NCBI RefSeq assembly: GCF_001447785.1
Contig: NW_015171503.1
Location: 3,234,314-3,298,313, forward strand
Length of the DNA stretch: 64,000 bases
DNA from: Gekko japonicus
Lineage: Eukaryota
Reading direction: 5' to 3'
Shown here: positions 14,280 to 61,100 of the stretch, piece after piece
Layout: each line of letters begins with the position of its first letter
How positions within the stretch are numbered: the stretch's first letter is position 1
Notes under the pieces: model-generated
What the model was told of the DNA's origin: nothing
The model's database searches: none
Seen by the model: only the letters and a program-made list of their open reading frames with translations
Position numbers and translations under genes: made by a program

Positions 14280-14980
14280 CATTCCCCCGCCTCCCTGAGC
14301 CCCGGGGTGGTGGCCTTGGACTCGTAGAGGCAAATTCCACCTCTCGTGCGAGAGGTCGTTCTGGCTCCCCCAGCTCTCCTTCGGGGCTCTTTAAAAAGTT
14401 ATGGCTGCCGGGGGGGGACTTCTTGGTGGCAGCTGCGATGCCCGCGTGGGGACGACGACGTTGTTTTGCCTACCTGAGCCCCGGGGTGGTGGCCTTGAAC
14501 TCGTAGGGGCAAATTCCACCTCTCTCGTGTGATGTCTGAGCGGCAACGCCACTCAGACATCACACCCAGATCTCGGGAGGGGCTCTTTAGAAAGTTATGG
14601 CCGCCGCCGCCGGCAGCTGCGATGCCCGCGTGGGGACGACGACGTTGTTTTGCCTACCTGAGCCCCGGGGTGGTGGCCTTGAACTCGTAGGGGCAAATTC
14701 CACCTCTCTCGTGTGATGTCTGAGCGGCAACGCCACTCAGACATCACACCCAGATCTCGGGAGGGGCTCTTTAAAAACTTATGGCCGCTGCCACTGTTCG
14801 CAGCAGCAGCCGCGATGCCCGCACGCAGGGGGGCGGGGCGAAATGTTCCCTTGCCTCCCTGAGCCCCGGGGTGGTGGCCTCGGACTCGTAGGGGCAAATT
14901 CCACCTCTCGCATGTGATCACACGCGAGAGGTCATTCTGGCTCCCCCAGCTCTCGGGAGGGGCTCTTTAAAAAGTAACTT
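14280..14980. repeat. GC-rich minisatellite, four units of ~180-200 bp, inside a probable DNA-transposon remnant (~14150-15460)
   Basis: CCTGAGCCCCGGGGTGGTGGCC...GCAAATTCCACCTCTC at ~14294, 14473, 14657, 14858. Confidence 0.9.
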
Positions 14981-41613: not shown

Positions 41614-43836
41614 CTGCAAATGGAAGGCAGCAACAGCAATAAGAGAACAATCTTTGTTTTCCCATGGTGCACTAGTGCTGGCAGATTAACAGCACAGAAA
41701 AAGAACCTTTAGCTTAGCTCCCTGAAGATGTAGATTTCATCTCCACATTCCACAGTAGAAATATCTGCCAAGGAATTCTACCTATTGCAAACTGCATGGG
41801 ACTTAATGTTCTCAGTTAATGCAGGACACCCTCCTGCACCTAGCTGTCCATATGTGGCTGCAAGGGAAGTCTGGCAAAATTGGGCGAGCATGGTCAGTTG
41901 TTTCTTTGCCATTACCCTGCTCCTCAAAAGGGAATCCCAGGAACATAGTTTGGAAGCCACTGTTTTCCCTTCAACAGATATCTGCTCAGGAGCACATGAA
42001 CAGATTATTCATTAATCCACAAATCCAACAGCGGAACAAATCCCAAAAGGAACCAGATACTGTAGTACAGAACTGCATCAACTAGCTCTGTGGAAAACTG
42101 AAGGTTAGAGAAAACAGGAGAGGGGAGTTACTGTTTTATCTAAGATCCAGAATTTCCAGGAACCCAGAAAATATGGATTAGAGTTTTGACAGGGATTGGG
42201 ATCTGAATCCCTGCTACCACATAAACCCTCTGATGAGTCATGTGGTGGCCTCCATCTCATAGTTTCAGTTTCCCTGTTCTGCATTAGAAAGACCCATGAA
42301 TACAGACTTTGCTAGATTGCCAAAGGCAAGCCGCATCATCCCATTCTCACCATATCCAGCAAAATATCCACTTTTAGCCGCAAGAGATTGTTCTCTTCCT
42401 CCAGCTGCTGGTTCCGTCTGCGTAGTCGCTGGGTCTCTCTGCGGTCTCCACTGCCCCCCAATGAGTCTACAAGTGAAAAAGGGGAACGGTATTAAGAATT
42501 GCCCTGCATTCTAGACTCCACACTGCCTACAGCCCGTGAAAGGCTCAGCAGGTGTCAGCCTTGGCCAGACAGCTTGGCAGGAAGTGACAATACTGCCAAG
42601 GTGTTAACCTACCAACACATGCCAAAAGACCCACAAATACCTTTCCTGGTAACCTCAGGCTGGAGACAGCAAGAGCTAGTAGCAGTGTCAGGAAGGAGAC
42701 TGAGCAGAGCAAAAGGTAGCTGAGGTTCCCCAATGGAGCACCAACACCCAAGTAGACCCAAGCCACAGTGTCAGTGCCACATGGTACAAACCCAGGCACC
42801 ATAACCAGTGCCTGCAAGGGTGATATAAGGGAAAGACCAAAGGGTCTTGCCCTCCGTGAATGAATCCAGGACAGAGACAGCAAGCACAGTCAACCCACCA
42901 ACCAATCATGAAGGAAGTATCCCTCTAAGTGGCAACTAAGACTGGTAGCAAAGACTCAGGTTGCACAGAGGCTGCCGTCACACCAGGATGTGTCCTCGGA
43001 GGTACTGGATGTTCCCCTGACTATGGCTTCTGCCACTGCCAATAGGAGTGGTGATCTTCCTCACCTGTAACCCACTGGCCATTCTCAAACTTCAGGCTCT
43101 GTCCAGCAAGTGTCATGGCTGGAGTGCCATAGTCTAGGCCCAACTCAATCTCACGAGTAGATCTATCCAGCTGTAGGGAGAAAGTAGATTCAACATGTTT
43201 AAAGAATTCAATTTCACCCACCCTAATGCTTCTCCTTCATGTTTTAATGTTCAGTACAAATATTAACAGGAGTGGAGTTATATGATGACTTGTGGGGGAG
43301 GGAAAATTCTTCGCCCCACTGGATCCTGCTTCCTCCCCTCTTGCTCTGACTCCAGTTCCCTCCCCTTTGTCCACCCACCCAGTTCTTCCCTCATTCAGAG
43401 TACAGATTTGGAAGGGGGGATTTAAAGCAACACCTCTTTTTTCCTACATAGAGGGGTCAGCCAGGTTCTTCCAGCCTCAGTATTTCTCATCTCTAAAATG
43501 GAAGTGTTGATTGGCTGACTGCCTCCAAATATATGTGTAGCTCATCTGGTGCATTCATTTTTAGAATCCATGAGCTGCAACAGCTATGGGTTAGTACAGA
43601 GAGGTGACAGATTGGGTGTGGCGTATAATTCTGATACGTTCCACTCCTCAGAGTTGCCAGTCTGTGTCTGGTGGACCTGAGGCATTGGTTAAACAAAACA
43701 AAGCTCTATCCCACAAAGCTGAAGTCTGCCCACTCCCACTCCAGGTTCTAGAACGTACCGAGTGCAGGTTGGAAAGTGAAGCTGATTTCCTGGGTGGGGT
43801 TTTCTTGGGGCTGAAGGTGTTCCCAAAGAGCGGCAT
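41533..43836 (-). CDS. CBY1: Protein chibby homolog 1 (beta-catenin antagonist, basal-body protein), complete, 126 aa
   Basis: Exons 43759-43836, 43065-43170, 42351-42466, 41533-41613 sum to 381 nt; MPLFGNTFSPKKTPPRKSASLSNLHS|LDRSTREIELGLDYG...LEEENNLLRLKVDILLDM|LSETTAESHLMEKELEELKNYSRRRK*. Confidence 0.98.
42351..42466 (-). CDS. CBY1: CBY1 coding exon 3
   Basis: DSLGGSGDRRETQRLRRRNQQLEEENNLLRLKVDILLDM (coiled coil). Confidence 0.95.
43065..43170 (-). CDS. CBY1: CBY1 coding exon 2
   Basis: LDRSTREIELGLDYGTPAMTLAGQSLKFENGQWVT. Confidence 0.96.
43759..43836 (-). CDS. CBY1: CBY1 first coding exon
   Basis: MPLFGNTFSPKKTPPRKSASLSNLHS, includes 14-3-3 type RKSAS motif. Confidence 0.96.
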
Positions 43837-44794
43837 GGTTCCTCAGCCTGAAAGCCTCCCTCTGGTTGCCAATATGCAAAAGCAGCAAAAAAAAAAAAAA
43901 AAAGAGCAAGAATGACAAAAGGCACATCAAGGCAGAGCTGAAACATGCACATTCTGTGAGGCAGTAAGCTTGGCCTACATATAAATAATGGGAAAGACAA
44001 CTGTCGTTTTTTCAAAAGTGAGTCTGTAGCCCTCTTTGATTGGAGAACAGACAAAAACATTCCCAGTCTCCCCTCCCTAAACGCTTAGCCCCCACCTCAT
44101 TTGGGTTAAGGGTCAACAGCTCATTGCAGAGAACAGAAAGGACCGCGGGGGAAACAGACAGCTTGGATGTCATCTTTAGATCCAAAATGAGGTTAATCCA
44201 TCATCTCTTCCATAGTGAAAAATACCAGAGTAATGGGCAGTTCTGAAGGCTTTTTGTGTGATGAACAGTGTAATCCTTAGCAGAGTTATACCTAAGCCCA
44301 CTGACATTAATTTTATTTACTTCATTTATACCCGGCTTTTCTCCCCAATGGTGACCCAAAGTAGCATATTATAACTGTGTAACCTTGTGAGGCAAGTTAG
44401 GCTGAGAGTGTATGGCTGGGTCAAAATCACCCAGCAAGTGTCTACAGCACAGCAGGGATACAAAGCTGGGTCTCCCAGACCTCGTCTGACACTCTAACCA
44501 CTACACCATACTGTGACTCACAAGGGAGCAACTCTGTTTGGGACTGCATTGTTAGGGTGGTCAGTTATGGCAAAATCTAGGAACATTTAACACAGAGTGT
44601 TTAAATAAAAGTATTGCATGCACCATTCTTTTCAGTCCCTTATTATGGACATCAAGACTGCTAAATATCATTCTGAAAATGAGGATAACTCAAAAACAAG
44701 ACTGTAATTTACTGTGTGTATCTTCAAAAAATCCCCGGCCTAGCTTTTACTGGAGTAAAGTAGGTGGTGATAAGACATGTCAAGAATGCAAGCG

Positions 44795-46949: not shown

Positions 46950-47900
46950 TGCCAATCTGCGCAGGCGCACACTTACCGCGGTTTCCAAACTTCGCGAATG
47001 CAGACGGGTGGGAGAGGGACGCGTGGGTAACGGGAGCAACAGTCAGCCCCGCCTTGAGCAAAAAAGATGGGTTCTACCACGAGACAGAGAGGGGGAATGG
47101 AACTGGTACAGAACTATTTTATAAAGAATAGGCGAATTAGCACCGTCCTACCGAAAAGCTGAAAGTAAGTCAAATGGTCTTATGTAGAAGAAAAGTGAAG
47201 AGGTTATCAGGAAGTATCAGAAAATATGCTGCCGTTTCTTTTCCTATAATGGTAGCGTCCCAAACCGCCGTGAAGGGCGGAGCGAGAAACGGAGCCTCAG
47301 TCGGGACCATACCATTGATTGGGGGGGGGGGAGTTTAAGCCCAGCTTTCCCCCTTAGAGTATATATTAATAATGCTATTCCCTAATTAACAGAGACGCGA
47401 GCAACTCACTCTCCTCATGTCATGTGAACTCCCCAAGAACAGCGAGTGGTCTGTGCCTCCTTTTCGAGAGGAGGCATAAATGCCCGCGACATGGTTTGCG
47501 CCGTGCGGTTGCCGTGGTTATAGCGGGACGCCCGTTACCAAGCGAGAACCTGGTGGGAGCTTCGGCCTGTTCCGGGCGAGGGCAGCAGAACACCTGGGCT
47601 CAGCACCAGACGCCGGAGGAGCGCTTCGCGGGCAAGCCGTGATTTGAGGCCGCAGCTAATTAACCAATAAGAAAGCTCTCCCGGCCTTAGCTGGTCTGGG
47701 AAGGAACGAGGGAGTATTCCTTCTCGCTCTCTTCCCCTGCTGGTAGTAGGATCCTTGTCTGTTCCCTCTCTCTGTCCTCCCCGCCCCCTCGAGGCGCGCT
47801 TCTTTGTCTCGTAACTTTCGACTCGGAATAAGCATGCCCAGGATCAGGCTGAGCAATCGTCTGCATAACCGAAGCCTAGGGGGCGCCAGTGGGACACTGC
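46950..47900. promoter_or_regulatory. CpG island, probable divergent promoter of CBY1 (-) and FAM227A (+)
   Basis: CpG-rich; minus-strand donor CG|GTAAGT at ~46977 (candidate CBY1 non-coding exon 1), NRF1-like TGCGCAGGCGCA ~46958, RFX X-box-like GTTGCC/GTTAC/GCAAC motifs. Confidence 0.7.
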
Positions 47901-48239
47901 CTTTCCTTCTCACACCCGTCCAGTAGTTCTTTGTGGCTGGGTCGAAAGAAAGGCACTTTTCACATACGATGCATTGCTTTTCTTTATTATTAATCAGTCA
48001 GTAGCTGGGTACATGCTACAGACACACACGCACCCGCGATTTCCCTAGAGCCAGTGTAGTGTAGTAGTTAATTAGGAGTATCTGGAAAACCCAAGTTCGA
48101 ATTCCCGCTCATGCCATGGAAATTCAGTGGGTGATCTTGGGCCAATCACACTCTCACTTTGGAAGAGAAGGACCGGATGATGTCTCTTAGTCTCAGTCGG
48201 GGGGGGGGGGGGTTTACAAAAAAGTCAAGTAGAGAAGAA

Positions 48240-52181: not shown

Positions 52182-55100
52182 GTATACATGCATGCTTTTA
52201 CTGTGATATTTTGAAGATTGAATCAAACCAGGTTTGGGAAAAACTATAGGAACATGCAGGACAACACAGAAAATGGCAAATCGGGGGGATGATGTCATCC
52301 AGATCCTCCAAAAAACCTGTTCTGGTTTGCATGCAAAACTAGAGGAAAACCTCCATATGGAATCAGCCAGTCTCTCTCTTTGGGCATAAACCATCTATGC
52401 ATAAGGGGTGGCTGCATGGGAGTGGTAAAAAAACAACAAGGTGAATTCAAGATGTGCTAAATGTGGGCCTTTTAAAATGCATCATAAATGAGTGTCTTTA
52501 CAAAGCGCTGCCATCCTTTTTTTCTGTTGATCCACACCTTGCCCTGAGCATTACTGAAGACTGGCTTTCCAGCCAGATTAAGTAATGATTTCTGCAATAA
52601 CTATAACATTTATACATTACCTTTAAAAAGATAATACATGCAAGGGAAGGCAATAGGAAATGAAAATGGCAGCAGGAAATTCTTACACCTCAAAGGCTTT
52701 CAATCTGTTTATCACATGTTTATCTCACCGTTCCTTCAAGGAGTGATATTTCATGCATGACTTTTCCCATTTTATCCTCACAACAGCCCTGTGAAGTAGT
52801 AGATCAGGCTGAGAGTGTATGACTGGCCCAAGGTTGTCCAGTGAGCTTCATAACAGAGAGAGGATTCAAAGCTACATCTCACCAGCCCAACATATTTTAT
52901 TAACCACTAAATCACACTAGTTTTCAAAAGAAACCCTCTCAGAAGGCTTTCAGTCTTCCAAAAGGCTCCTTAACAGAGATTTGTAGTGTATGTTGTTGGA
53001 ACCATGCAGCAAGTCAACCAGAAAATCGCAAATTTCAAAGGGGGACTGCAAAAATTTGACAGTAGTGACCTGGTGAGTTAAAGAGATCTTGCATCACTTT
53101 TATGCAAAGAATCCCAGAATTCAAGTATTGTTTTTAGTGATGCTGGATTTCATCAGTAGATGATTTGGCAAAGTATCCTACTTAGCCTTTTCAATGACAA
53201 GATGAAAATCAGCTTGGGTTCTTTTCTTTTTAGTGGAGATGTCCTGTAGCATCCTTTATTGAGCTCTCCATAGACCAAGAGTGTAAACCAGGTGCAATGG
53301 TTTTACTGATTACTGAACCAGTTTTAAATTTTGCAAGCTAGCCAGCTTGCAGCCAGTTGTGTTCACAGTGCAAGAAAGCGAGAACAAGATGGCAAATATC
53401 CAGGAGACTAATGGTTTGGCTGTGTCTGTAACTGTTCAAAAAAGAGGGGTAGGAACAGACTATGCTAAACAGGTTACAGGTATGTAAGCCCCAGTCATTC
53501 CTTTTCAGAGACCTATGTTTCTTTAAGTCTCCAAAAAGCAACAAGCAAACAAAAGTGTTCATGAATTAGAAACAAAAGATGTTTTGTGCCCTATTGATTT
53601 CCATGAGAAAGATTTTAGCATGTGTCAATGGGACTGAAAAGTCTGGACTGACTCGTGCCCAGTATAACGTTTTTTTAATAATATATATGTATTAATTTTC
53701 AAACATTCAAAGAAAGAAAGAAAGAAAAACACATCGGAAAAGGCTATTTTGGATTCCACGCCAAGAGGTTCTTACATGACATAACTAATTCAATTCATTT
53801 GTTTCTATAACTTATAACATTAAGTCATCACCTCCTTCCTAACTGAAAACAAAAGAAGAACAAAGAGAAAAGCCATAACCATTCTAATAGTCTAATTCCT
53901 AATCAATTAATCTGATTCAAAATTTATAGGATTATTAAATTATTAATTTAAATCTTTCCCATTACCCATTTTAGAATTGCATTACTATCCACTTCAATAA
54001 TCACTCAATTCAAGTAGTTATCTTACACATCATAAATCACAACAAGTAAACACCAACAGGTTTTGTTAATGGAGAGAGAGGGTCAGATAAGGGAGAGGGC
54101 TTTCCATTTTATAATCATCCTTGTCCTTCCATTCCTCCCTGAATCCAGTTTTCTTCTTTTCTTCTACCCAGTGTCACATACAATTTAAACATTGCTCCTG
54201 CCATACTAATAATTCCTTAATTTCTTATCTATATACTAATAGCGAAACGCGCCCCCTGCGTGCAGATATCTAAATCCACACATCGGGGGCACCTGGGGGG
54301 CAGGGAGATTTTCCTGCACACTTGGGGCAGTCCCCAGGTGTGCACAAAAATCTAAAAAGTTGAAAAAAAGAAAAGGGGCGATATTTAAATGCCCCAAAAA
54401 GTAAAAGAGCCTTCCCTGCGCATGCACAGGGAACGCTCTGGGAACTCTGCAGTGGGCTGGCGGTTGGAATACGCTCAGGCCTTGCCGTGGGGGGGGAGGA
54501 GGAAGAGATCGGCGGAGGAGGAGGAGACTGCCGGAGCCAGGGGGGAGGGGAAGAAGGAGATCGGTGAGGCCTGGCGGCTGCAAGCCGCTCGGGCCTTGCT
54601 GCCGGGGGTGGGGGAGGACACGGGGGGGATCTGCGAGNNNNNNNNNNNNNNNNNNNNNNNNNNNNNNNNNNNNNNNNNNNNNNNNNNNNNNNNNNNNNNN
54701 NNNNNNNNNNNNNNNNNNNNNNNNNNNNNNNNNNNNNNNNNNNNNNNNNNNNNNNNNNNNNNNNNNNNNNNNNNNNNNNNNNNNNNNNNNNNNNNNNNNN
54801 NNNNNNNNNNNNNNNNNNNNNNNNNNNNNNNNNNNNNNNNNNNNNNNNNNNNNNNNNNNNNNNNNNNNNNNNNNNNNNNNNNNNNNNNNNNNNNNNNNNN
54901 NNNNNNNNNNNNNNNNNNNNNNNNNNNNNNNNNNNNNNNNNNNNNNNNNNNNNNNNNNNNNNNNNNNNNNNNNNNNNNNNNNNNNNNNNNNNNNNNNNNN
55001 NNNNNNNNNNNNNNNNNNNNNNNNNNNNNNNNNNNNNNNNNNNNNNNNNNNNNNNNNNNNNNNNNNNNNNNNNNNNNNNNNNNNNNNNNNNNNNNNNNNN

Positions 55101-58100
55101 NNNNNNNNNNNNNNNNNNNNNNNNNNNNNNNNNNNNNNNNNNNNNNNNNNNNNNNNNNNNNNNNNNNNNNNNNNNNNNNNNNNNNNNNNNNNNNNNNNNN
55201 NNNNNNNNNNNNNNNNNNNNNNNNNNNNNNNNNNNNNNNNNNNNNNNNNNNNNNNNNNNNNNNNNNNNCCCCCCCCGCGAGTATCGCGGGTCCCCTTTCT
55301 TGTAATTTCTAAATACGATTTCCCCTTGTTAACTCCTTCCTATATATCAAACCAGCAAAAGAAAAGAAAGAAAGAACAAGGAAATCTAAAACATAAATCG
55401 GTTTATCATTTTTTTCTTAGTTCAATAATTAATTATTATCCTGTTATTTAACATACACTGGCACTGTCAAACAAAACAGAGGTGCCCTTCCAACATAAAT
55501 TTGAGTAATCAAACAATGAAAAATGCCTATAATACACCTTTAGCAGACATTGAAACAAAGGGGGGACTTCTGGTTTTGACGCTTTAAACGATGGCGGCGT
55601 CTCTTGGTTTCTCTGAGAGACGTGTTCCATGAATCGGGGATTAGGAGGGAGCGTGATTGTGCACGCTCCCCCATGGAGACCATAGACAATGGGCTTCTAG
55701 CCAGGGGGCTTTGGAGAGCCCTACCTCCGGCCGGCAGCCGGTACGGGGGTCTACTCTCTGCCCTGAAGGTCCTGCTCTGATTCCCAGTACTGGATTAGAA
55801 GCCACCACCAGGACAAGCATTTGGAGGTTTAGCAATTTTCTCTGCCTGGCATGATCCCAGGGGCCGTCTTAGAACCTGGTAGATCGATTCAAGGATTGAT
55901 GAGTGAGTTGCCGTTGAAACAAGGCACTAAAGCCTAGACGTGAAGTCCCTCTACTATAAGCGTATAAACGGAGGGGGGAGGGGATGCCCTATCTCCCGAC
56001 GTTTTAAGCAAATGCGAAAGCAAGGATGGAGGGACTGATCAAATTGTGGTGATGGACTGTAGCAGAGAGTTTTTCTGAAAGAAAGCTGAGAGTTTAAACA
56101 GACCGTAGAGACTTTGGCATTCTTTCTCGGCTGATGTAAACATCCCCAAAAGATGGCGACGAGAGGTGAAGAGGAAGGCGGGATCAATGCTTTCTTCAGG
56201 AAGGAGAACATTCTCTCCCTCCTCTACACTCTTCTCCCCCTTAATTCGTATGAAAAAAATAAAAAACACACACAACCCCCCCCCCCAACAAAACAATTTC
56301 TAAAAATGGCTGGTCGCAGCTAACGAAAACATGGCGGCCATGTTTTCTACCCTCGGTCGCTCTTGCTCCGGGGCAAAAACGGCACACCCACACACTTGCC
56401 AGGTGCAAGGGGTGGCTGAATCAAGCCCCCTGCTACCCCCTCCCTCTGGGAGATTGGGCGGTGCCCCCGAAGAACCAGGGAACCACCGAAAGGAGCAAAA
56501 GGGGGAGCGGGTGATTTGGGAGTCCCGACGAGCACCCGCTTGCTCGCCGCACCATACCGGAAGTGTTGGAGTTTTTATAAAAATTGTGATTCAGCAGAGA
56601 AAAACAGCTTAGCAATGCCAAAGTGCAATAATCAGACTCAGAGTCCATGTGTGTTTAAAATATAAAAGTTTTACTACATTCTAGCACAGGGAAAGGTAAC
56701 TGGGAGGAAAATAACAACACAGCTAAACAGCTACATCCTCACTCTACAAAGGACGAGACTAGAAGAGCTTGCAATGGCTACTCTTACACGCTTCTTGTTG
56801 AAACAGAACAAAGACGGGAAGAGGAGCCATAAAATGCAAAAACACTTTGACACTTTGCTTCCAATCAAACTCTTAGAACAGGAAGAATTTTCCCGGGCTG
56901 GCAGACCTAAAGTAACATTGGCTTACACAAAAGCATGTGGTTTCCTGTAACAACAAAACAGACATTTAACCCAATATATACTGAGTGTTTTTATCTTCTG
57001 CATTCTCTCTCCCTCCTTTACAGACATCATTCTTCTCCCCCTTAATTCGTATGAAAAAAATAAAAAACACACACAACCCACCCCCCCCACCAAACAAATC
57101 TCTAAAACAGAAATGGCTGGTCGCAGCTAACGAAAACATGGCGGCCATGTTTTCTACCCTCGGTCGCTCTTGCTCCGGGGCAAAAACGGCACACCCACAC
57201 ACTTGCCAGGTGCAAGGGGTGGCTGAATCAAGCCCCCTGCTACCCCCTCCCTCTGGGAGGTTGGGCGGTGCCCCCGAAGAACCAGGAAACCACCGAAAGG
57301 AGCAAAAAGGGGAGCGGGCGATTTGGGAGTCCCGACGAGCACCCGCTCGCTTGCCGCACCATACCGGAAGTCCCTTGCCCAGTATAACTTAAGACTTTAG
57401 TATCTGAATATATTTTAAAAAACTTACATTTTGCTTTCTCCAGCTGGATGAGACGGCCAGGATAGTTCACAGCCCACCACTAAAACAGTAAAATAGCAGA
57501 AAAGTGCAGCAATAATTGCAGAAAACAGGCCAAATCCATTTCTGCATCAGCAATATAAAATTGATCATACAATAAAAAGCTATCTGCCAGAAACAATTGG
57601 CAATTCTCCATCAGAAAAACCTGTCTAATTTCCTAGTTTCCAAAGACCCTCTTTTAAAAATTATTTTCAGCAGCCATTACAAACTTAACAGAGAGGAAGT
57701 GATGCAAACCACCTTTGAGAGTGCCTTCTGTAACAGTAGTGCTAGAAAGCCCTCTCTCTTGTGGCCACCCACTGGTACTTCTGAAAAGGAAGGCTTCACA
57801 GATGACCTCAGTGTTTGGATAGGTCTATCTGGGAGAAGGTGATCCTTAAGAAATTCTGGTCCTAAATCATTTAGAGCTGTAAAGGTTACAATACCAGCAG
57901 TATGAATTGGGACCCAAAATAGACAGGCAACCAGTGCAAATGAAACAGAATAGAATATATCCTTTGTTGGTTTGTCCTTATTACCAGCATGGCAACAGAA
58001 GCCTTCTCAAAACATGAATGAAATCCATGTAATACCTTTTATTAGTACAAATCAAATTTACACAAAACATTATGCAAGCTTTTGAGCTCACCAGAAGTCT

Positions 58101-61100
58101 TCCTCAGGCTGGATGTTAGACAATGTAAAAAGAAAGCTTGAAGCAGGTTCTTCAGGCCATAGGGTTAAAGGTCTGATCTTGCATCCATCCAACGAAAGTC
58201 CAACATCCACCCCCAGATTAGTCATATATCTGGCCAAGAATGCCTCCATTTTGCCTGGATGAAATTTGTCGTGTCCCCCCCCCCCAACGTCCATGCAGTC
58301 ACTGATTTCTGGTATGCCTTCAGAGTCTCCAAAGATTCCCCGATCTTAGATAGAAATGAGAAAGACAGCAATCATATGCATATTGATGACAAAGAAGTCC
58401 AAATCACTGGATAACTACCCCCACCAAAAGAACAAGGTAGACACTTGTTGTATCCCCTCCCACCATCTTTTGAGAACTATCCTCCAGGAAGGAAGGGAGT
58501 CTTGAAAGTCTTGAAAGTCACCAGGGTCAATGGTATCAAAAGACTCTGACAGATACAGAAAGACCAGCAGGAAGGAATGCACTCATCCTATCTATGTCCT
58601 GGCACAGGTCGTCTTAGGTTAAGGTGACTAAGAGCCAAGCTAGATGAGAAGTTTTACATGAGTTACGTCAGAGTTCCAAGGTGAAATGGCCATGGGGGTT
58701 CCTAGCTTGCTCACTGTGGAGCTACATATGTACTGCTTATGGCTGTTTTGGTTCAGGAAAATGACCCTGGATGGAGATTGAAACCCCTTCTCCTTCTGTG
58801 CTATGTTCCCAAGCCAAATTGGGCCCCAGTACACTTGGGAGCATTAGTTTTCCCACAGCATGGATGACTGCAAATCGGGTGTCAGGATTGGTCAAGTTTG
58901 GTCCTAAGGCAGTTCTGAAAACAGGCTAGAAAGCTCTCTGTCATAGATCCAGGTAAGCAGTATCCTCCAGGGAATGCTGGAATTTCACTGCTACCACATA
59001 TGCACCTTGGCCATAAAATATCCCCTTGTGGAGGCTGCATTGCCACAATGAATGCCTCTCCAATTCTCAATGGTAATGTGAGCAGAACAGGGAATCATTC
59101 CCATGTGGAAGCAATCTAAGAATGCATTTGAAGGTGCTCTTGACTTCCTCGTTTGCCACAAAGAAAGTAAACTGTAAGATTCCATTAAGCTCTAGGAAAA
59201 TAATCTGTAACACTAATTATTTTTATTATTGAAGGTAATTGAGGATACAAGTCAGAAAAGATCTTCAGGACAAAAGAGAGCTCGACAGATGTCAAGGCAA
59301 ATTAGGGGGAAAGGTATGCATTAAATTACTACCTACCTTTGCACTGTGTTTATAAGTCATTAGTACATGTTTTTAAAATATGTGTGTGTTTGTACAGCTT
59401 TTACCGAGGACTCCCTTTCAACTTGCTAGCCAGGTTCATGCCTGCTTAGCTTTAGTAATGTTTTAGTATCAGGTTTTACAGACTGTTCAAAGGGCCTAGA
59501 GCATGTCAGTATTTTCTTTCAATAAGTACCTGTTTGGCACATACTCTGGAGTAGAATTCCATCTGAATGTGGACTAGGTGTGAGGGAAGGGATAGCAATC
59601 TTGCTATATCATTGATAAAAGTTAAATTTTTCAAATGCAAAATTTTTGTATCTCAGAAATGTTTCTGGATCCCAGGGTAAAGTCACCAAATAAGAAACAT
59701 CTCATCAGTGGTGCATCTGAGGGGTGTCAGTCATGAAGCACATTGTGCAGTCTTGGGCAAGTTGCTTTTTGTCAGCTTAAATGGTCTCACAGGGTTCTTG
59801 TGAAGACAACTTGGGTTCCTCCATGTAGTGCACCCAGAGCATCTTGAAGGGAGGAGTGAATTCACATGTGATAGATCAATATATGGAACACGTGGCTAGC
59901 CACCCCTCTCTCCATGCTGAGATGGGTGTAACACCAGTGCAGTTCACTGACATGAAGCAGTTAGTTAGTTTAGTTAGTTTTTTATTGCAGTCTTGAGACC
60001 AACGTACAGAGTAAGCATAAAACAGTCATAATAGACATGAAGGAGATCTAAAGGCCAGACTAGGCACTTGCTTTGTTTAAGAGATGGGGAACCCAGACCA
60101 GTTCAGGTTCTCCATAGCAGCTGTGGGGAATGCCTACTGGAAAAAACCAACGTAGAGTCTGTCTGGGGTCAGAATGCTGCCAAACTCATTTTCCATGCCA
60201 ACACAATAGCGTGTGTGTGGGGGGGGAGTTATTTCTCCATTTTTGCTGCTCCATGTGGAGTATTCTATGCACATTGAGTGACAAAATCATGGAAATAACT
60301 CCCCCCCCCCCGGCTGTTTTGGCATTGAAAACGGCTGAGGGGGAAGCGGGAGCCTCCCCCTGTGGCAGTGTTTTCAGCCCACGTGGGCTCTGCTTTATTT
60401 TTTTATATTCATACCCCACAGCTGCTGTTTGGCCTGGAGTCAGCTATGCCTGGGGAGGGGGAGTCAATAACACCTATTAGTTGAAATCCATTTGATCCAC
60501 ATTGCAATTCTACTATAGTAAAGTACGACCAACACTATGCATATGCACATTGTAAAGTGCAGTACATATGATGAAAATACTACTTCATTTTTCTGGTTGA
60601 ACTGAAGTATCTACAAGCCAAAGTCCAGTACACCAATTCAACCAGTTCCCACATAGGTTTGTCCGTTATATCACAATAATTCAGGTGCTCAGTAGAACTC
60701 TTCGTTTCTTTCTGTTGCAGAGAAAGAGTGGAAGGCAATACAGAGTGCACATGTTTCTGCTGATATACGTCAGAGCAAAGCACCCCCGAAGAAGGTACGA
60801 TGGGTTGCTGGAGCCATCCATTCTATTCCCGTTTTTGGGTATTATTTAGAAGGTAGACAGATTGCAGGTAGTCAGGGAGCTTCTTTTTGAGAGTAGTGCC
60901 TGTAAAGATGCCACATTGGATCAGATTGCTGTAACATTGTTTTATTTACTTAGATATTTATACCTCCACCTTTCTTCTCGTTGGGAACCCAAAGCGGCTT
61001 AAAACATTCTTTTTTCCGCCATTTTATCCTTACCTGTAAATGGGAGAGAGTGAGTACCCAAGGGCACCCAGTGAGCTTCCATGGTGAAGCAGGGATTCAA

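What the first reader, a model, noticed from the sequence alone, without database searches (positions are those of the whole stretch)
53656..57388. 3.7-kb composite retroposon bounded by a perfect 13-bp TSD, built from two L1-like promoters and an LTR-like segment
Seen: TGCCCAGTATAAC at 53656-53668 and 57376-57388. On the minus strand the enclosed unit starts GGGACTTCCGG and ends in an A-run with ATTAAA. Inside, in minus order: a CpG-rich ~335-bp leader, a ~465-bp TG...CA segment, a second copy of the leader, an oppositely oriented L1-like 5' end, a gap, and an AT-rich tail. No RT or endonuclease ORF is visible. Known: G-rich GACTTCCGG starts, A-tails and 7-20 bp TSDs typify L1-clade target-primed insertion. 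Inference: a young non-autonomous chimeric element (SVA-like in logic) mobilised in trans, or an L1 derivative later hit by nested insertions.
Basis: partly seen in the sequence, partly recalled or inferred. Interest (0 to 1): 0.7.

Follow-up and report, generated by a model that had tools for sequence, protein, structure and literature searches.

The report
Nested jumping genes inside gecko retroposon
This is one dead copy of a retroposon, likely from a gecko, whose intact relatives lack a copying enzyme but carry a small protein of no known family; three unrelated mobile elements likely landed inside it afterwards, so it is a pile-up at one site and not a new chimeric family.

Summary
The 13-bp TSD, the two leaders and the gap are real, but the unit is a nest, not a mobile chimera. 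Its frame is one copy of a ~1.9-kb non-autonomous, L1-type retroposon with intact relatives elsewhere in the genome. Contigs of two related organisms leave the reference exactly at the TSD edge, as an empty site would. Inside lie three unrelated high-copy elements: a young copia-type solo LTR, the 5' 646 nt of a second non-autonomous retroposon (antisense; not a full L1), and a Helitron-like element that holds the gap. No second copy of an internal junction was found (top 40 candidates each). Deletions removed ~740 nt, including nearly all of the family's single ORF. That ORF is the real interest: ~210 aa, 147 of 150 scored places in this genome, named homologues only in Gekko kuhli, no Pfam or L1 ORF1 domain, modest purifying selection (dN/dS 0.43 against 0.56-0.66 neutral). 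The scan noted what is probably this family before on other DNA (e1-9506611, e1-9582039). The locus is ordinary; the family works like half-L1 but fails its ORF1p test.

The parts
57376..57388 (.). TSD copy at the element's 5' side (15 nt with 1 mismatch if 57389-57390 are counted); TT/AA nick-site context
   Evidence: contigs of organisms B and C stop aligning exactly at 57376
56998..57375 (-). Backbone leader copy 1: CpG-rich 5' UTR (about 150 nt shorter than in intact relatives) plus the first ~11 codons of the family ORF (ATG at 57030, frameshifted)
   Evidence: 82% to L058 and ~80% to dozens of family leaders; CpG o/e 0.71; 5' junction crossed by contigs of X1 and X2
56564..56997 (-). Young copia-type solo LTR, first 13 nt and left TSD missing; joined to leader 1 through a 4-nt AAGA microhomology; clean CA end followed by CTTCC
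   Evidence: 39 other copies at 93-98% among 40 scored of 1914 candidates; 8 of 11 siblings with a perfect 5-bp TSD; copia-type gag, protease and integrase between two such LTRs in L168
56211..56563 (-). Backbone leader copy 2, starting 5 nt into the element (CTTCC) and ending at a 2-nt TG microhomology with the antisense retroposon
   Evidence: 2.3% from copy 1 over 260 nt, 1.4% without CpG; shares the ~150-nt deletion
55560..56210 (+). 5' 646 nt (plus a G run) of a second, ~1.4-1.7-kb non-autonomous L1-type retroposon, antisense to the backbone; its 3' part was deleted together with ~740 nt of backbone
   Evidence: 39 other copies at 92-94% among 40 scored of 923 candidates; family length, A tails and 12-20-nt TSDs in 8 of 9 copies; junction at 55565 crossed by contigs of X1 and X2 at about single-copy depth
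55303..55559 (-). Backbone 3' UTR, first part
   Evidence: 74-78% to L058 and L059
54228..55302 (+). Non-autonomous Helitron-like element: 5' TC, 17-nt hairpin at 55274-55290, 3' CTTG, inserted between A and T without TSD; holds the N gap
   Evidence: (4217 candidates, 40 scored); flanks put side by side are collinear with L058/L059
54638..55268 (.). Assembly gap of 631 N inside the repetitive GC-rich middle of the Helitron-like element
   Evidence: family copies L049, L051-L053 run 660-890 nt between the same two ends, and L049 and L051 also have gaps there
53669..54227 (-). Backbone 3' UTR, second part, with decayed poly(A) signal (AATACA, 53693-53688) and A7 tail (53676-53670)
   Evidence: 94% to the 5'-truncated copy L061, 76-86% to others; last ~35 nt resemble the 3' ends of this genome's L1s
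53656..53668 (.). TSD copy at the element's 3' side

Best explanation
The unit is one copy of a ~1.9-kb non-autonomous retroposon, likely inserted by L1 enzymes, that holds three unrelated repeat-family inserts and a duplicated leader, which were likely added at this site after it landed. Shown: TSD, tail, intact relatives without the inserts, family identity and ends of each insert, loss of ~740 nt including the ORF, and the element's 5' end present in two runs of organism A while contigs of organisms B and C break off at the TSD. Inferred order: (1) an L1 ORF2 protein nicked TT/AA and copied the backbone RNA in, after the split from B and C; (2) a Helitron-like element rolled in at an A|T site of the 3' UTR; (3) a second non-autonomous retroposon entered antisense; (4) a copia-type element integrated 5 nt into a leader and was reduced to a solo LTR; (5) template-switch or break repair at short microhomologies (AAGA, TG) duplicated the leader around the LTR, clipped 13 nt of the LTR, and deleted the ORF with the 3' half of the antisense insert. 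Step 5 is the least certain: repair from an LTR-bearing allele or sister (my odds about 55%) and a head-to-tail dimer trimmed by deletion both fit. The copy is dead as a protein source. Intact family members likely use their CpG-rich leader as a promoter, borrow L1 ORF2 through an L1-like 3' end, and make a ~210-aa protein (N-terminal helix, acidic middle, K/R-rich C-terminal helix) that would bind their own RNA in place of ORF1p; that role is untested.
For: Intact backbones L058, L059 and L060 carry leader, ORF, 3' UTR and tail in one piece; L058 and L060 have their own TSDs. Only the window itself spans leader1/LTR, LTR/leader2 or leader2/antisense insert; no Helitron hit ran past query position 420 of 458, 8 nt beyond its end; the tail search found 7 candidates in all, and the only one reaching the Helitron site (L059) is uninterrupted. 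The contig across 55565 has depth 57.5 against a flank depth of 65 in X1. Each insert has its own integration marks: 5-bp TSDs in 8 of 11 LTR siblings; A before TC in 9 of 10 Helitron-like 5' ends and T after CTTG in 5 of 5 3' ends, 2 of these tandem joints; TSDs in 8 of 9 copies of the antisense family. X3 record 22 and X5 record 26 align from the right flank to exactly 57376 and run on for 438 and 251 unlike letters; X1 record 7 and X2 record 12 cross into the leader. Ages fit: non-CpG pairwise distance LTR 2.1%, leader pair 1.4%, antisense insert 3.2%, tail to L061 3.6%, against flank differences of 90 in 1499 (6.0%) for B and 44 in 962 (4.6%) for C (my sums, table 8). The LTR family is very deep in A and nearly absent in B and C (table 2). 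Family ends match L1 ends over 30-36 nt at 82-87% (L124, L125, L142 against L161 and L165).
Against: Searches scored only the best 40 candidates in a fragmented assembly, so a parent locus in a gap cannot be excluded. The Helitron-like insert is 5.9% (non-CpG) from the 10 copies compared, about 3% per branch, as old as the split from B and C, so it could already have been in the donor. The letters beyond 57376 in B and C were not printed, so that they run into the left flank is inferred. Two deletion ends lie within 7 nt of each other in backbone coordinates, which a step-by-step history explains only by coincidence or a fragile GA-rich tract. Purifying selection on the ORF is modest and was measured on copies chosen for open frames; at kappa 8-16 the lowest neutral runs (0.42, 0.32) reach the observed 0.43.
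Confidence: 0.8

Rival explanations
1. The composite, or part of it (backbone plus Helitron-like insert), was built at a donor locus and retrotransposed here once as a long RNA; the donor was lost or is unassembled.
For: The TSD brackets the whole unit. The Helitron-like insert looks about as old as the split from B and C. The assembly has 191,500 contigs, and searches are lower bounds.
Against: No donor with any junction was found. The LTR and the leader duplication (about 1% per branch) are younger than the tail's distance to its nearest sibling (1.8% per branch). The junction at 55565 is at about single-copy depth in X1.
Confidence: 0.12
2. An active SVA-like chimeric family, driven by the first leader and mobilised in trans, with several copies.
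For: TSD, A tail, CpG-rich 5' end and no RT; parts of several repeat classes.
Against: No other place matches the leader above 87%, apart from one 216-bp contig identical to leader 1. All junctions are unique among the scored hits. The junctions show microhomologies and integrase or rolling-circle marks; I saw no GT-AG joints by eye. The poly(A) signal is decayed.
Confidence: 0.03
3. The leader-LTR-leader part is an assembly artefact, for example two haplotypes joined.
For: The leaders are 98% alike; a stray 216-bp contig equals leader 1; polymorphism in organism A is about 1.2%; no listed contig crosses these joints.
Against: The joints rest on 4- and 2-nt microhomologies, too short for an assembler overlap (inference). 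The leaders differ by substitutions and three indels. X2's contig from the flank ends at 57229, 31 nt past the last difference between the leaders, as expected if a second near-identical copy exists in that run (inference).
Confidence: 0.05

Closest known systems
HAL1 (half-L1) of mammals
   Same: Non-autonomous, about 2 kb, one ORF, no ORF2, retained 5' leader, A tail and TSDs. HAL1 'encodes only ORF1p' and arose several times (PMC5753468, passages seen; rat HAL1 keeps its promoter, PMC8535693, passage seen).
   Different: The ORF has no detectable ORF1p RRM or CTD; only a 33-column N-terminal helix aligns weakly (E 0.041, probability 1.3). Named homologues come from a gecko only. This copy has lost the ORF. 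Bao and Jurka 2010 was not held, so non-mammalian HAL1s listed there would be unseen.
SVA and LAVA composite retroposons of apes (features recalled, no call)
   Same: Made of parts of several repeat classes, with TSD and A tail, no enzymes of its own.
   Different: SVA is a multi-copy family with fixed junctions; here the junctions are single-copy and carry DNA-level insertion marks.
Nested transposon clusters (general knowledge, recalled)
   Same: An older element interrupted by younger ones of other classes, then trimmed by microhomology deletions.
   Different: Only the density (three classes of insert plus a duplication within 3.7 kb, in under about 3% of neutral change) and the leader-LTR-leader repair product stand out.
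Non-autonomous Helitrons (hallmarks from PMC4038834, passages seen)
   Same: 5' TC, 16-20-bp palindrome near the 3' end, A|T insertion, no TSD.
   Different: The 3' end is CTTG, not strict CTRR; no RepHel partner was sought.
Ty1/copia LTR retrotransposons
   Same: TG...CA LTR, 5-bp TSD, copia-type gag, protease, GAG-pre-integrase and integrase in that order between two LTRs.
   Different: Only a clipped solo LTR is present here; the RT of the family was not located.

Membership tests
SVA-like composite retroposon family | Several copies share the same internal junctions | tested here: not met
   only the window spans them (best 40 candidates each; 7 of 7 for the tail)
SVA-like composite retroposon family | TSD and A tail around the whole unit, no RT | tested here: met
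L1-type target-primed insertion | 7-20-bp TSD at a TT/AA-like site and 3' A tail | tested here: met
   13 bp perfect, TCTT/AAGT, A7; consensus recalled
L1-type target-primed insertion | Empty site with one TSD copy in relatives | tested here: inconclusive
   B and C contigs leave the reference exactly at 57376, but their onward letters were not shown
HAL1 (half-L1) | No ORF2 (endonuclease, RT) | tested here: met
   tblastn with this genome's L1 ORF2: 0 hits in the unit, 14 backbone-family elements and 1 antisense-family copy; control L1 hit
HAL1 (half-L1) | Encodes ORF1p (coiled coil, RRM, CTD; PMC5381506 passages) | tested here: not met
   No Pfam ORF1 family in 1 + 6 family proteins; the family HMM does not hit 11 long L1 frames (9 ORF1, 2 ORF2 starts); tblastn with ORF1: 0 of 16 elements; the ORF is deleted in this copy
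HAL1 (half-L1) | ORF descends from L1 ORF1 | tested here: inconclusive
   Profile-profile match to the ORF1 N-terminal helix only, E 0.041, probability 1.3; only 7 ORF1s from this genome were used
HAL1 (half-L1) | Own internal promoter in the 5' UTR | not testable with these tools
   CpG o/e 0.71 and full-length copies are suggestive only
Helitron (insert 54228-55302) | 5' TC, subterminal hairpin, A|T target, no TSD | tested here: met
   hairpin of 7 bp, -8.7 kcal/mol, 12 nt from the end; flanks collinear with L058/L059
Helitron (insert 54228-55302) | 3' CTRR | tested here: inconclusive
   CTTG in the window and 5 of 5 copies, one base off; CTRY ends are reported for Lep1. Filed as Helitron-like
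Helitron (insert 54228-55302) | RepHel-coding partner with the same ends | not tested
   No search made
Ty1/copia (insert 56564-56997) | TG...CA LTR with 5-bp TSD | tested here: met
   8 of 11 siblings perfect, 1 with one mismatch in the TSD, 1 a 5' LTR followed by a PBS-like stretch; L030 has a perfect TSD but a variant end. The window copy has lost its left end
Ty1/copia (insert 56564-56997) | Copia-type gag and integrase placed before RT | tested here: inconclusive
   Retrotran_gag_2 E 1.7e-25, Pol_BBD, gag_pre-integrs, rve in that order in L168; RT not located (gaps)

The most novel reading that the evidence does not exclude
The backbone belongs to a large, old and still recently active gecko superfamily of L1 parasites that replaced ORF1p by their own ~210-aa protein: an N-terminal helix possibly kept from ORF1p and a basic C-terminal helix that packages their own RNA and recruits L1 ORF2. 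That would be a protein-coding class of non-autonomous retroposon distinct from both SINEs and HAL1.
Probability: 0.4. Interest if true: 0.65.

Novelty: new variant of a known kind. Interest (0 to 1): 0.38.

Why it matters
The locus corrects a tempting reading: a perfect TSD around mixed parts does not make a chimeric family. It also records four transposon families active at one site within roughly 3% of neutral change, a compact marker for gecko phylogeny. The label 'new variant' rests on the backbone family, not on the nest. If its orphan protein works in cis, non-autonomous retroposons can carry a helper protein other than ORF1p, which makes testable what an RNA needs in order to capture L1 ORF2. 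Five paper searches (listings only, plus passages of four papers) showed no description of such gecko elements; Repbase, Dfam and subscription journals were not searchable.

Tried and rejected
An 8-bp TSD around the gap-holding insert (my notebook entry 1) was rejected: the repeat is native to the backbone, and the flanks join without duplication. A Penelope-like reading of that insert was dropped for the Helitron ends; Rfam found nothing in L049 or L058. Splicing as the source of the internal joints: no GT-AG seen by eye; two internally deleted family copies do not break at the donor-like motif. A full L1 behind the antisense piece: no ORF1 or ORF2. phmmer with the single ORF found nothing among 83 candidates; the profile found 34 proteins, of which P0012 (2862 aa, acidic repeats, unnamed) looks like a composition match and was left out. 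AlphaFold2 gave three confident-to-middling helices and a disordered middle (mean pLDDT 65, pTM 0.27); Foldseek gave no match and VIA-align only generic long helices, best Z 4.9; neither says anything about family. The self-association job on the N-terminal helix gave no verdict (0.19, mark 0.32). The ESM Atlas could not be used. A look-up of earlier findings by sequence returned nothing, so the link to earlier notes rests on their descriptions. No supplements were read.
Full report
Observation. The 13-mer TGCCCAGTATAAC stands at 53656-53668 and 57376-57388 and nowhere else in the window; 7 of 200,000 random pairs of 35-nt windows share a 13-mer. On the minus strand the enclosed 3,707 nt begin AGGGACTTCCGG and end in A7 plus C. 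The two leaders are 98% alike over 261 nt. The gap is 54638-55268. tblastn with ORF1 and ORF2 of an L1 from this genome finds nothing in the unit, while a control L1 hits at E below 1e-90.

Dissection. Each segment was searched in the own genome. The leader matched 40 of 40 scored places (222 candidates); apart from the window's two copies and a 216-bp contig identical to leader 1, none exceeded 87%. The tail had 7 candidates in all. One locus, L058, holds leader and tail 1.85 kb apart. L058, L059 and L060 show the uninterrupted element: leader, one ORF, 3' UTR, tail, and in L058 and L060 a TSD. Against them the window copy lacks about 150 nt in both leaders and about 740 nt after the second leader, which held all but the first ~11 codons of the ORF.

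The inserts. (a) 56997-56564 is an LTR with 39 other copies at 93-98% among 40 scored of 1914 candidates. Siblings begin with 13 nt that the window copy lacks and end CA; 8 of 11 have a perfect 5-bp TSD. Between two such LTRs in L168 lie copia-type gag, protease and integrase frames. The join to leader 1 uses AAGA, present in both parents; leader 2 follows the CA directly and starts 5 nt into the element. (b) 56210-55565 is the 5' end, in antisense, of another family (39 other copies at 92-94% among 40 scored of 923). Its copies share about 1.4-1.7 kb, end in A tails and have 12-20-nt TSDs in 8 of 9 cases; L034 has no ORF1 or ORF2 homology. Its join to leader 2 uses TG, present in both parents. 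(c) 54228-55302 on the plus strand starts TC, has a 7-bp hairpin 12 nt before a CTTG end, and sits between A and T; the flanks are collinear with L058 and L059 without duplication. These are the Helitron hallmarks given in PMC4038834 (passages seen), apart from CTTG for CTRR. The gap lies in its repetitive middle; L049 and L051 have gaps there too.

Family or single site. Only the window spans leader1/LTR, LTR/leader2 and leader2/antisense insert. No antisense-family hit ran past position 668 of 962, and no Helitron-like hit past 420 of 458. Each search scored the best 40 candidates only. In contigs of public runs laid on 55450-59000 (4 of the 19 runs listed), organism A crosses the 5' junction (X1 record 7, X2 record 12) and the junction at 55565 (X1 record 1, depth 57.5 against flank 65; X2 record 9). 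Organisms B and C align along the right flank to exactly 57376 and go on for 438 and 251 letters unlike the reference (X3 record 22, X5 record 26). That is what an empty site gives, but the onward letters were not printed. No listed contig crosses the three joints around the LTR and leader 2, and the table was cut.

Timing. Flank differences are 90 in 1499 for B, 44 in 962 for C and 23 in 1845 for X1 (my sums). Non-CpG pairwise distances are 2.1% for the LTR (11 copies), 1.4% between the leaders, 3.2% for the antisense insert (12 copies), 3.6% between the tail and L061, and 5.9% for the Helitron-like insert (10 copies). All but the last are clearly younger than the split, which fits nesting in place; the last leaves room for a donor that already carried it. 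The leader pair is about as old as the LTR, which ties the duplication to the LTR's arrival.

Mechanism. Shown are the parts, their families and the joints. Inferred are the order and the repair route: L1-driven insertion of the backbone, then rolling-circle, target-primed and integrase insertions, then microhomology-guided repair that duplicated the leader and deleted the ORF. Both deletion ends fall within 7 nt of each other in a GA-rich tract at the ORF start, which hints at one complex repair event (for example copying from an LTR-bearing allele); this is not shown.

The backbone family. The L058 ORF (216 aa from the first ATG) matches 147 of 150 scored places among 1075 candidates, most at 25-63% identity. 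Of 20 loci fetched, chosen mostly for stop-free matches, 19 show a 178-276-aa frame, and 6 show a clear TSD with AATAAA and A tail. Of 18 loci picked by leader or backbone match, 9 give a credible TSD of 10-19 nt. Lengths are mostly 1.6-2.9 kb, and shared sequence ends there. The last 30-36 nt of L124, L125 and L142 match the 3' ends of two L1s at 82-87% (12 L1 loci compared, weak E-values). The protein has no Pfam match. A profile of 11 copies finds 34 proteins among 1.8 billion; 9 of 10 looked up are Gekko kuhli hypothetical proteins, and so are all 6 hits of a second profile search. The host is therefore likely a gecko (inference). The family profile does not hit L1 ORF1 frames; profile-profile comparison aligns only the N-terminal helix, E 0.041. 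dN/dS is 0.43 over 5 non-overlapping pairs; neutral simulations give 0.66 +/- 0.08 at kappa 4 and 0.56 +/- 0.07 at kappa 8 (19 transitions and 7 transversions at fourfold sites imply kappa near 5), and 0.51 +/- 0.06 at kappa 16. By region, over 20 overlapping pairs, it is 0.27 for the N-terminal helix, 0.62 for the middle and 0.46 for the C-terminal motif. Selection is thus modest and centred on the helices, and the copies were chosen for open frames. L129 and L130 have almost identical ORFs at different sites with their own TSDs, so some lineages moved recently.

Comparison with known systems. The family works like HAL1, defined as an L1 derivative that encodes only ORF1p (PMC5753468, passages), but fails the ORF1p test (domains from PMC5381506, passages; that paper has no hit for HAL1 or non-autonomous). 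It should not be filed as HAL1 until an ORF1 ancestor is found. The composite is not an SVA-like family (SVA features recalled). Searches (listings) showed no paper on such gecko elements; Bao and Jurka 2010 was not held. Earlier notes of this scan describe what is probably the same orphan-protein family in this genome and similar ones in another; I read them after my own tests, and they are not independent support.

Context. Chibby exons lie at 43024-43842 on minus, a CpG island at 47-48 kb, and FWWh-domain exons on plus just past the window. The unit would be antisense within the 5' part of a FAM227-type gene; no exon upstream of it was identified.

Verdict. The locus is an ordinary, if dense, nest of insertions in a dead retroposon copy (confidence 0.8); alone it would score about 0.15. 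The backbone family with its orphan protein raises the score to 0.38.

Noticed in passing
L168:855-5623 and L169; window 56564-56997: A young copia-type family in a lizard: siblings 2% apart, two-LTR elements with copia-type gag and integrase, very deep in organism A and almost absent in B and C.
   Followed up: partly
L033-L045; window 55565-56210: A high-copy ~1.4-1.7-kb L1-type retroposon without a long ORF; its copies end in a C-run/G-run palindrome just before the A tail.
   Followed up: partly
L129:1178-1807 and L130: Two family copies differ by about one synonymous change in the ORF (pS 0.008, pN 0) yet are only 94.9% alike over the first 1.8 kb, which suggests conversion or recombination of the ORF between subfamilies.
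   Followed up: no
5' UTRs of L106, L124, L125, L129, L131, L132, L134, L135 and others: A splice-donor-like GTGAGT lies 140-315 nt before the ORF in 8 of 18 divergent copies (12 of 18 with looser patterns); no chance control was run. The window copy's leader deletion removes it.
   Followed up: partly
L051:826-1065, L054, L050: Helitron-like copies in tandem (CTTG followed directly by TC of the next copy) and in inverted pairs.
   Followed up: no
L003 (G000:C177070, 216 bp): A whole tiny contig identical to leader 1 (57347-57132); probably an assembler by-product of the duplication.
   Followed up: no
L033, 3' flank of the antisense-family copy: The flank shares 14 nt with this locus's TSD context, inside what looks like a 5S-derived SINE (recalled likeness); probably chance.
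   Followed up: no
L136, L138, L142, P0017: Family proteins with internally duplicated basic or N-terminal modules.
   Followed up: no
window 43024-43842, 47001-48000; G000:C11793:3298765-3303806; G000:C6718:7555-10027: Chibby exons, a CpG island and FWWh exons give a head-to-head CBY1/FAM227-type layout; a second FWWh locus lies on C6718.
   Followed up: partly
window 14428-14918 and 1453-1632: GC-rich tandem repeats of 184 bp (2.6 copies) and 62 bp (2.9 copies).
   Followed up: no
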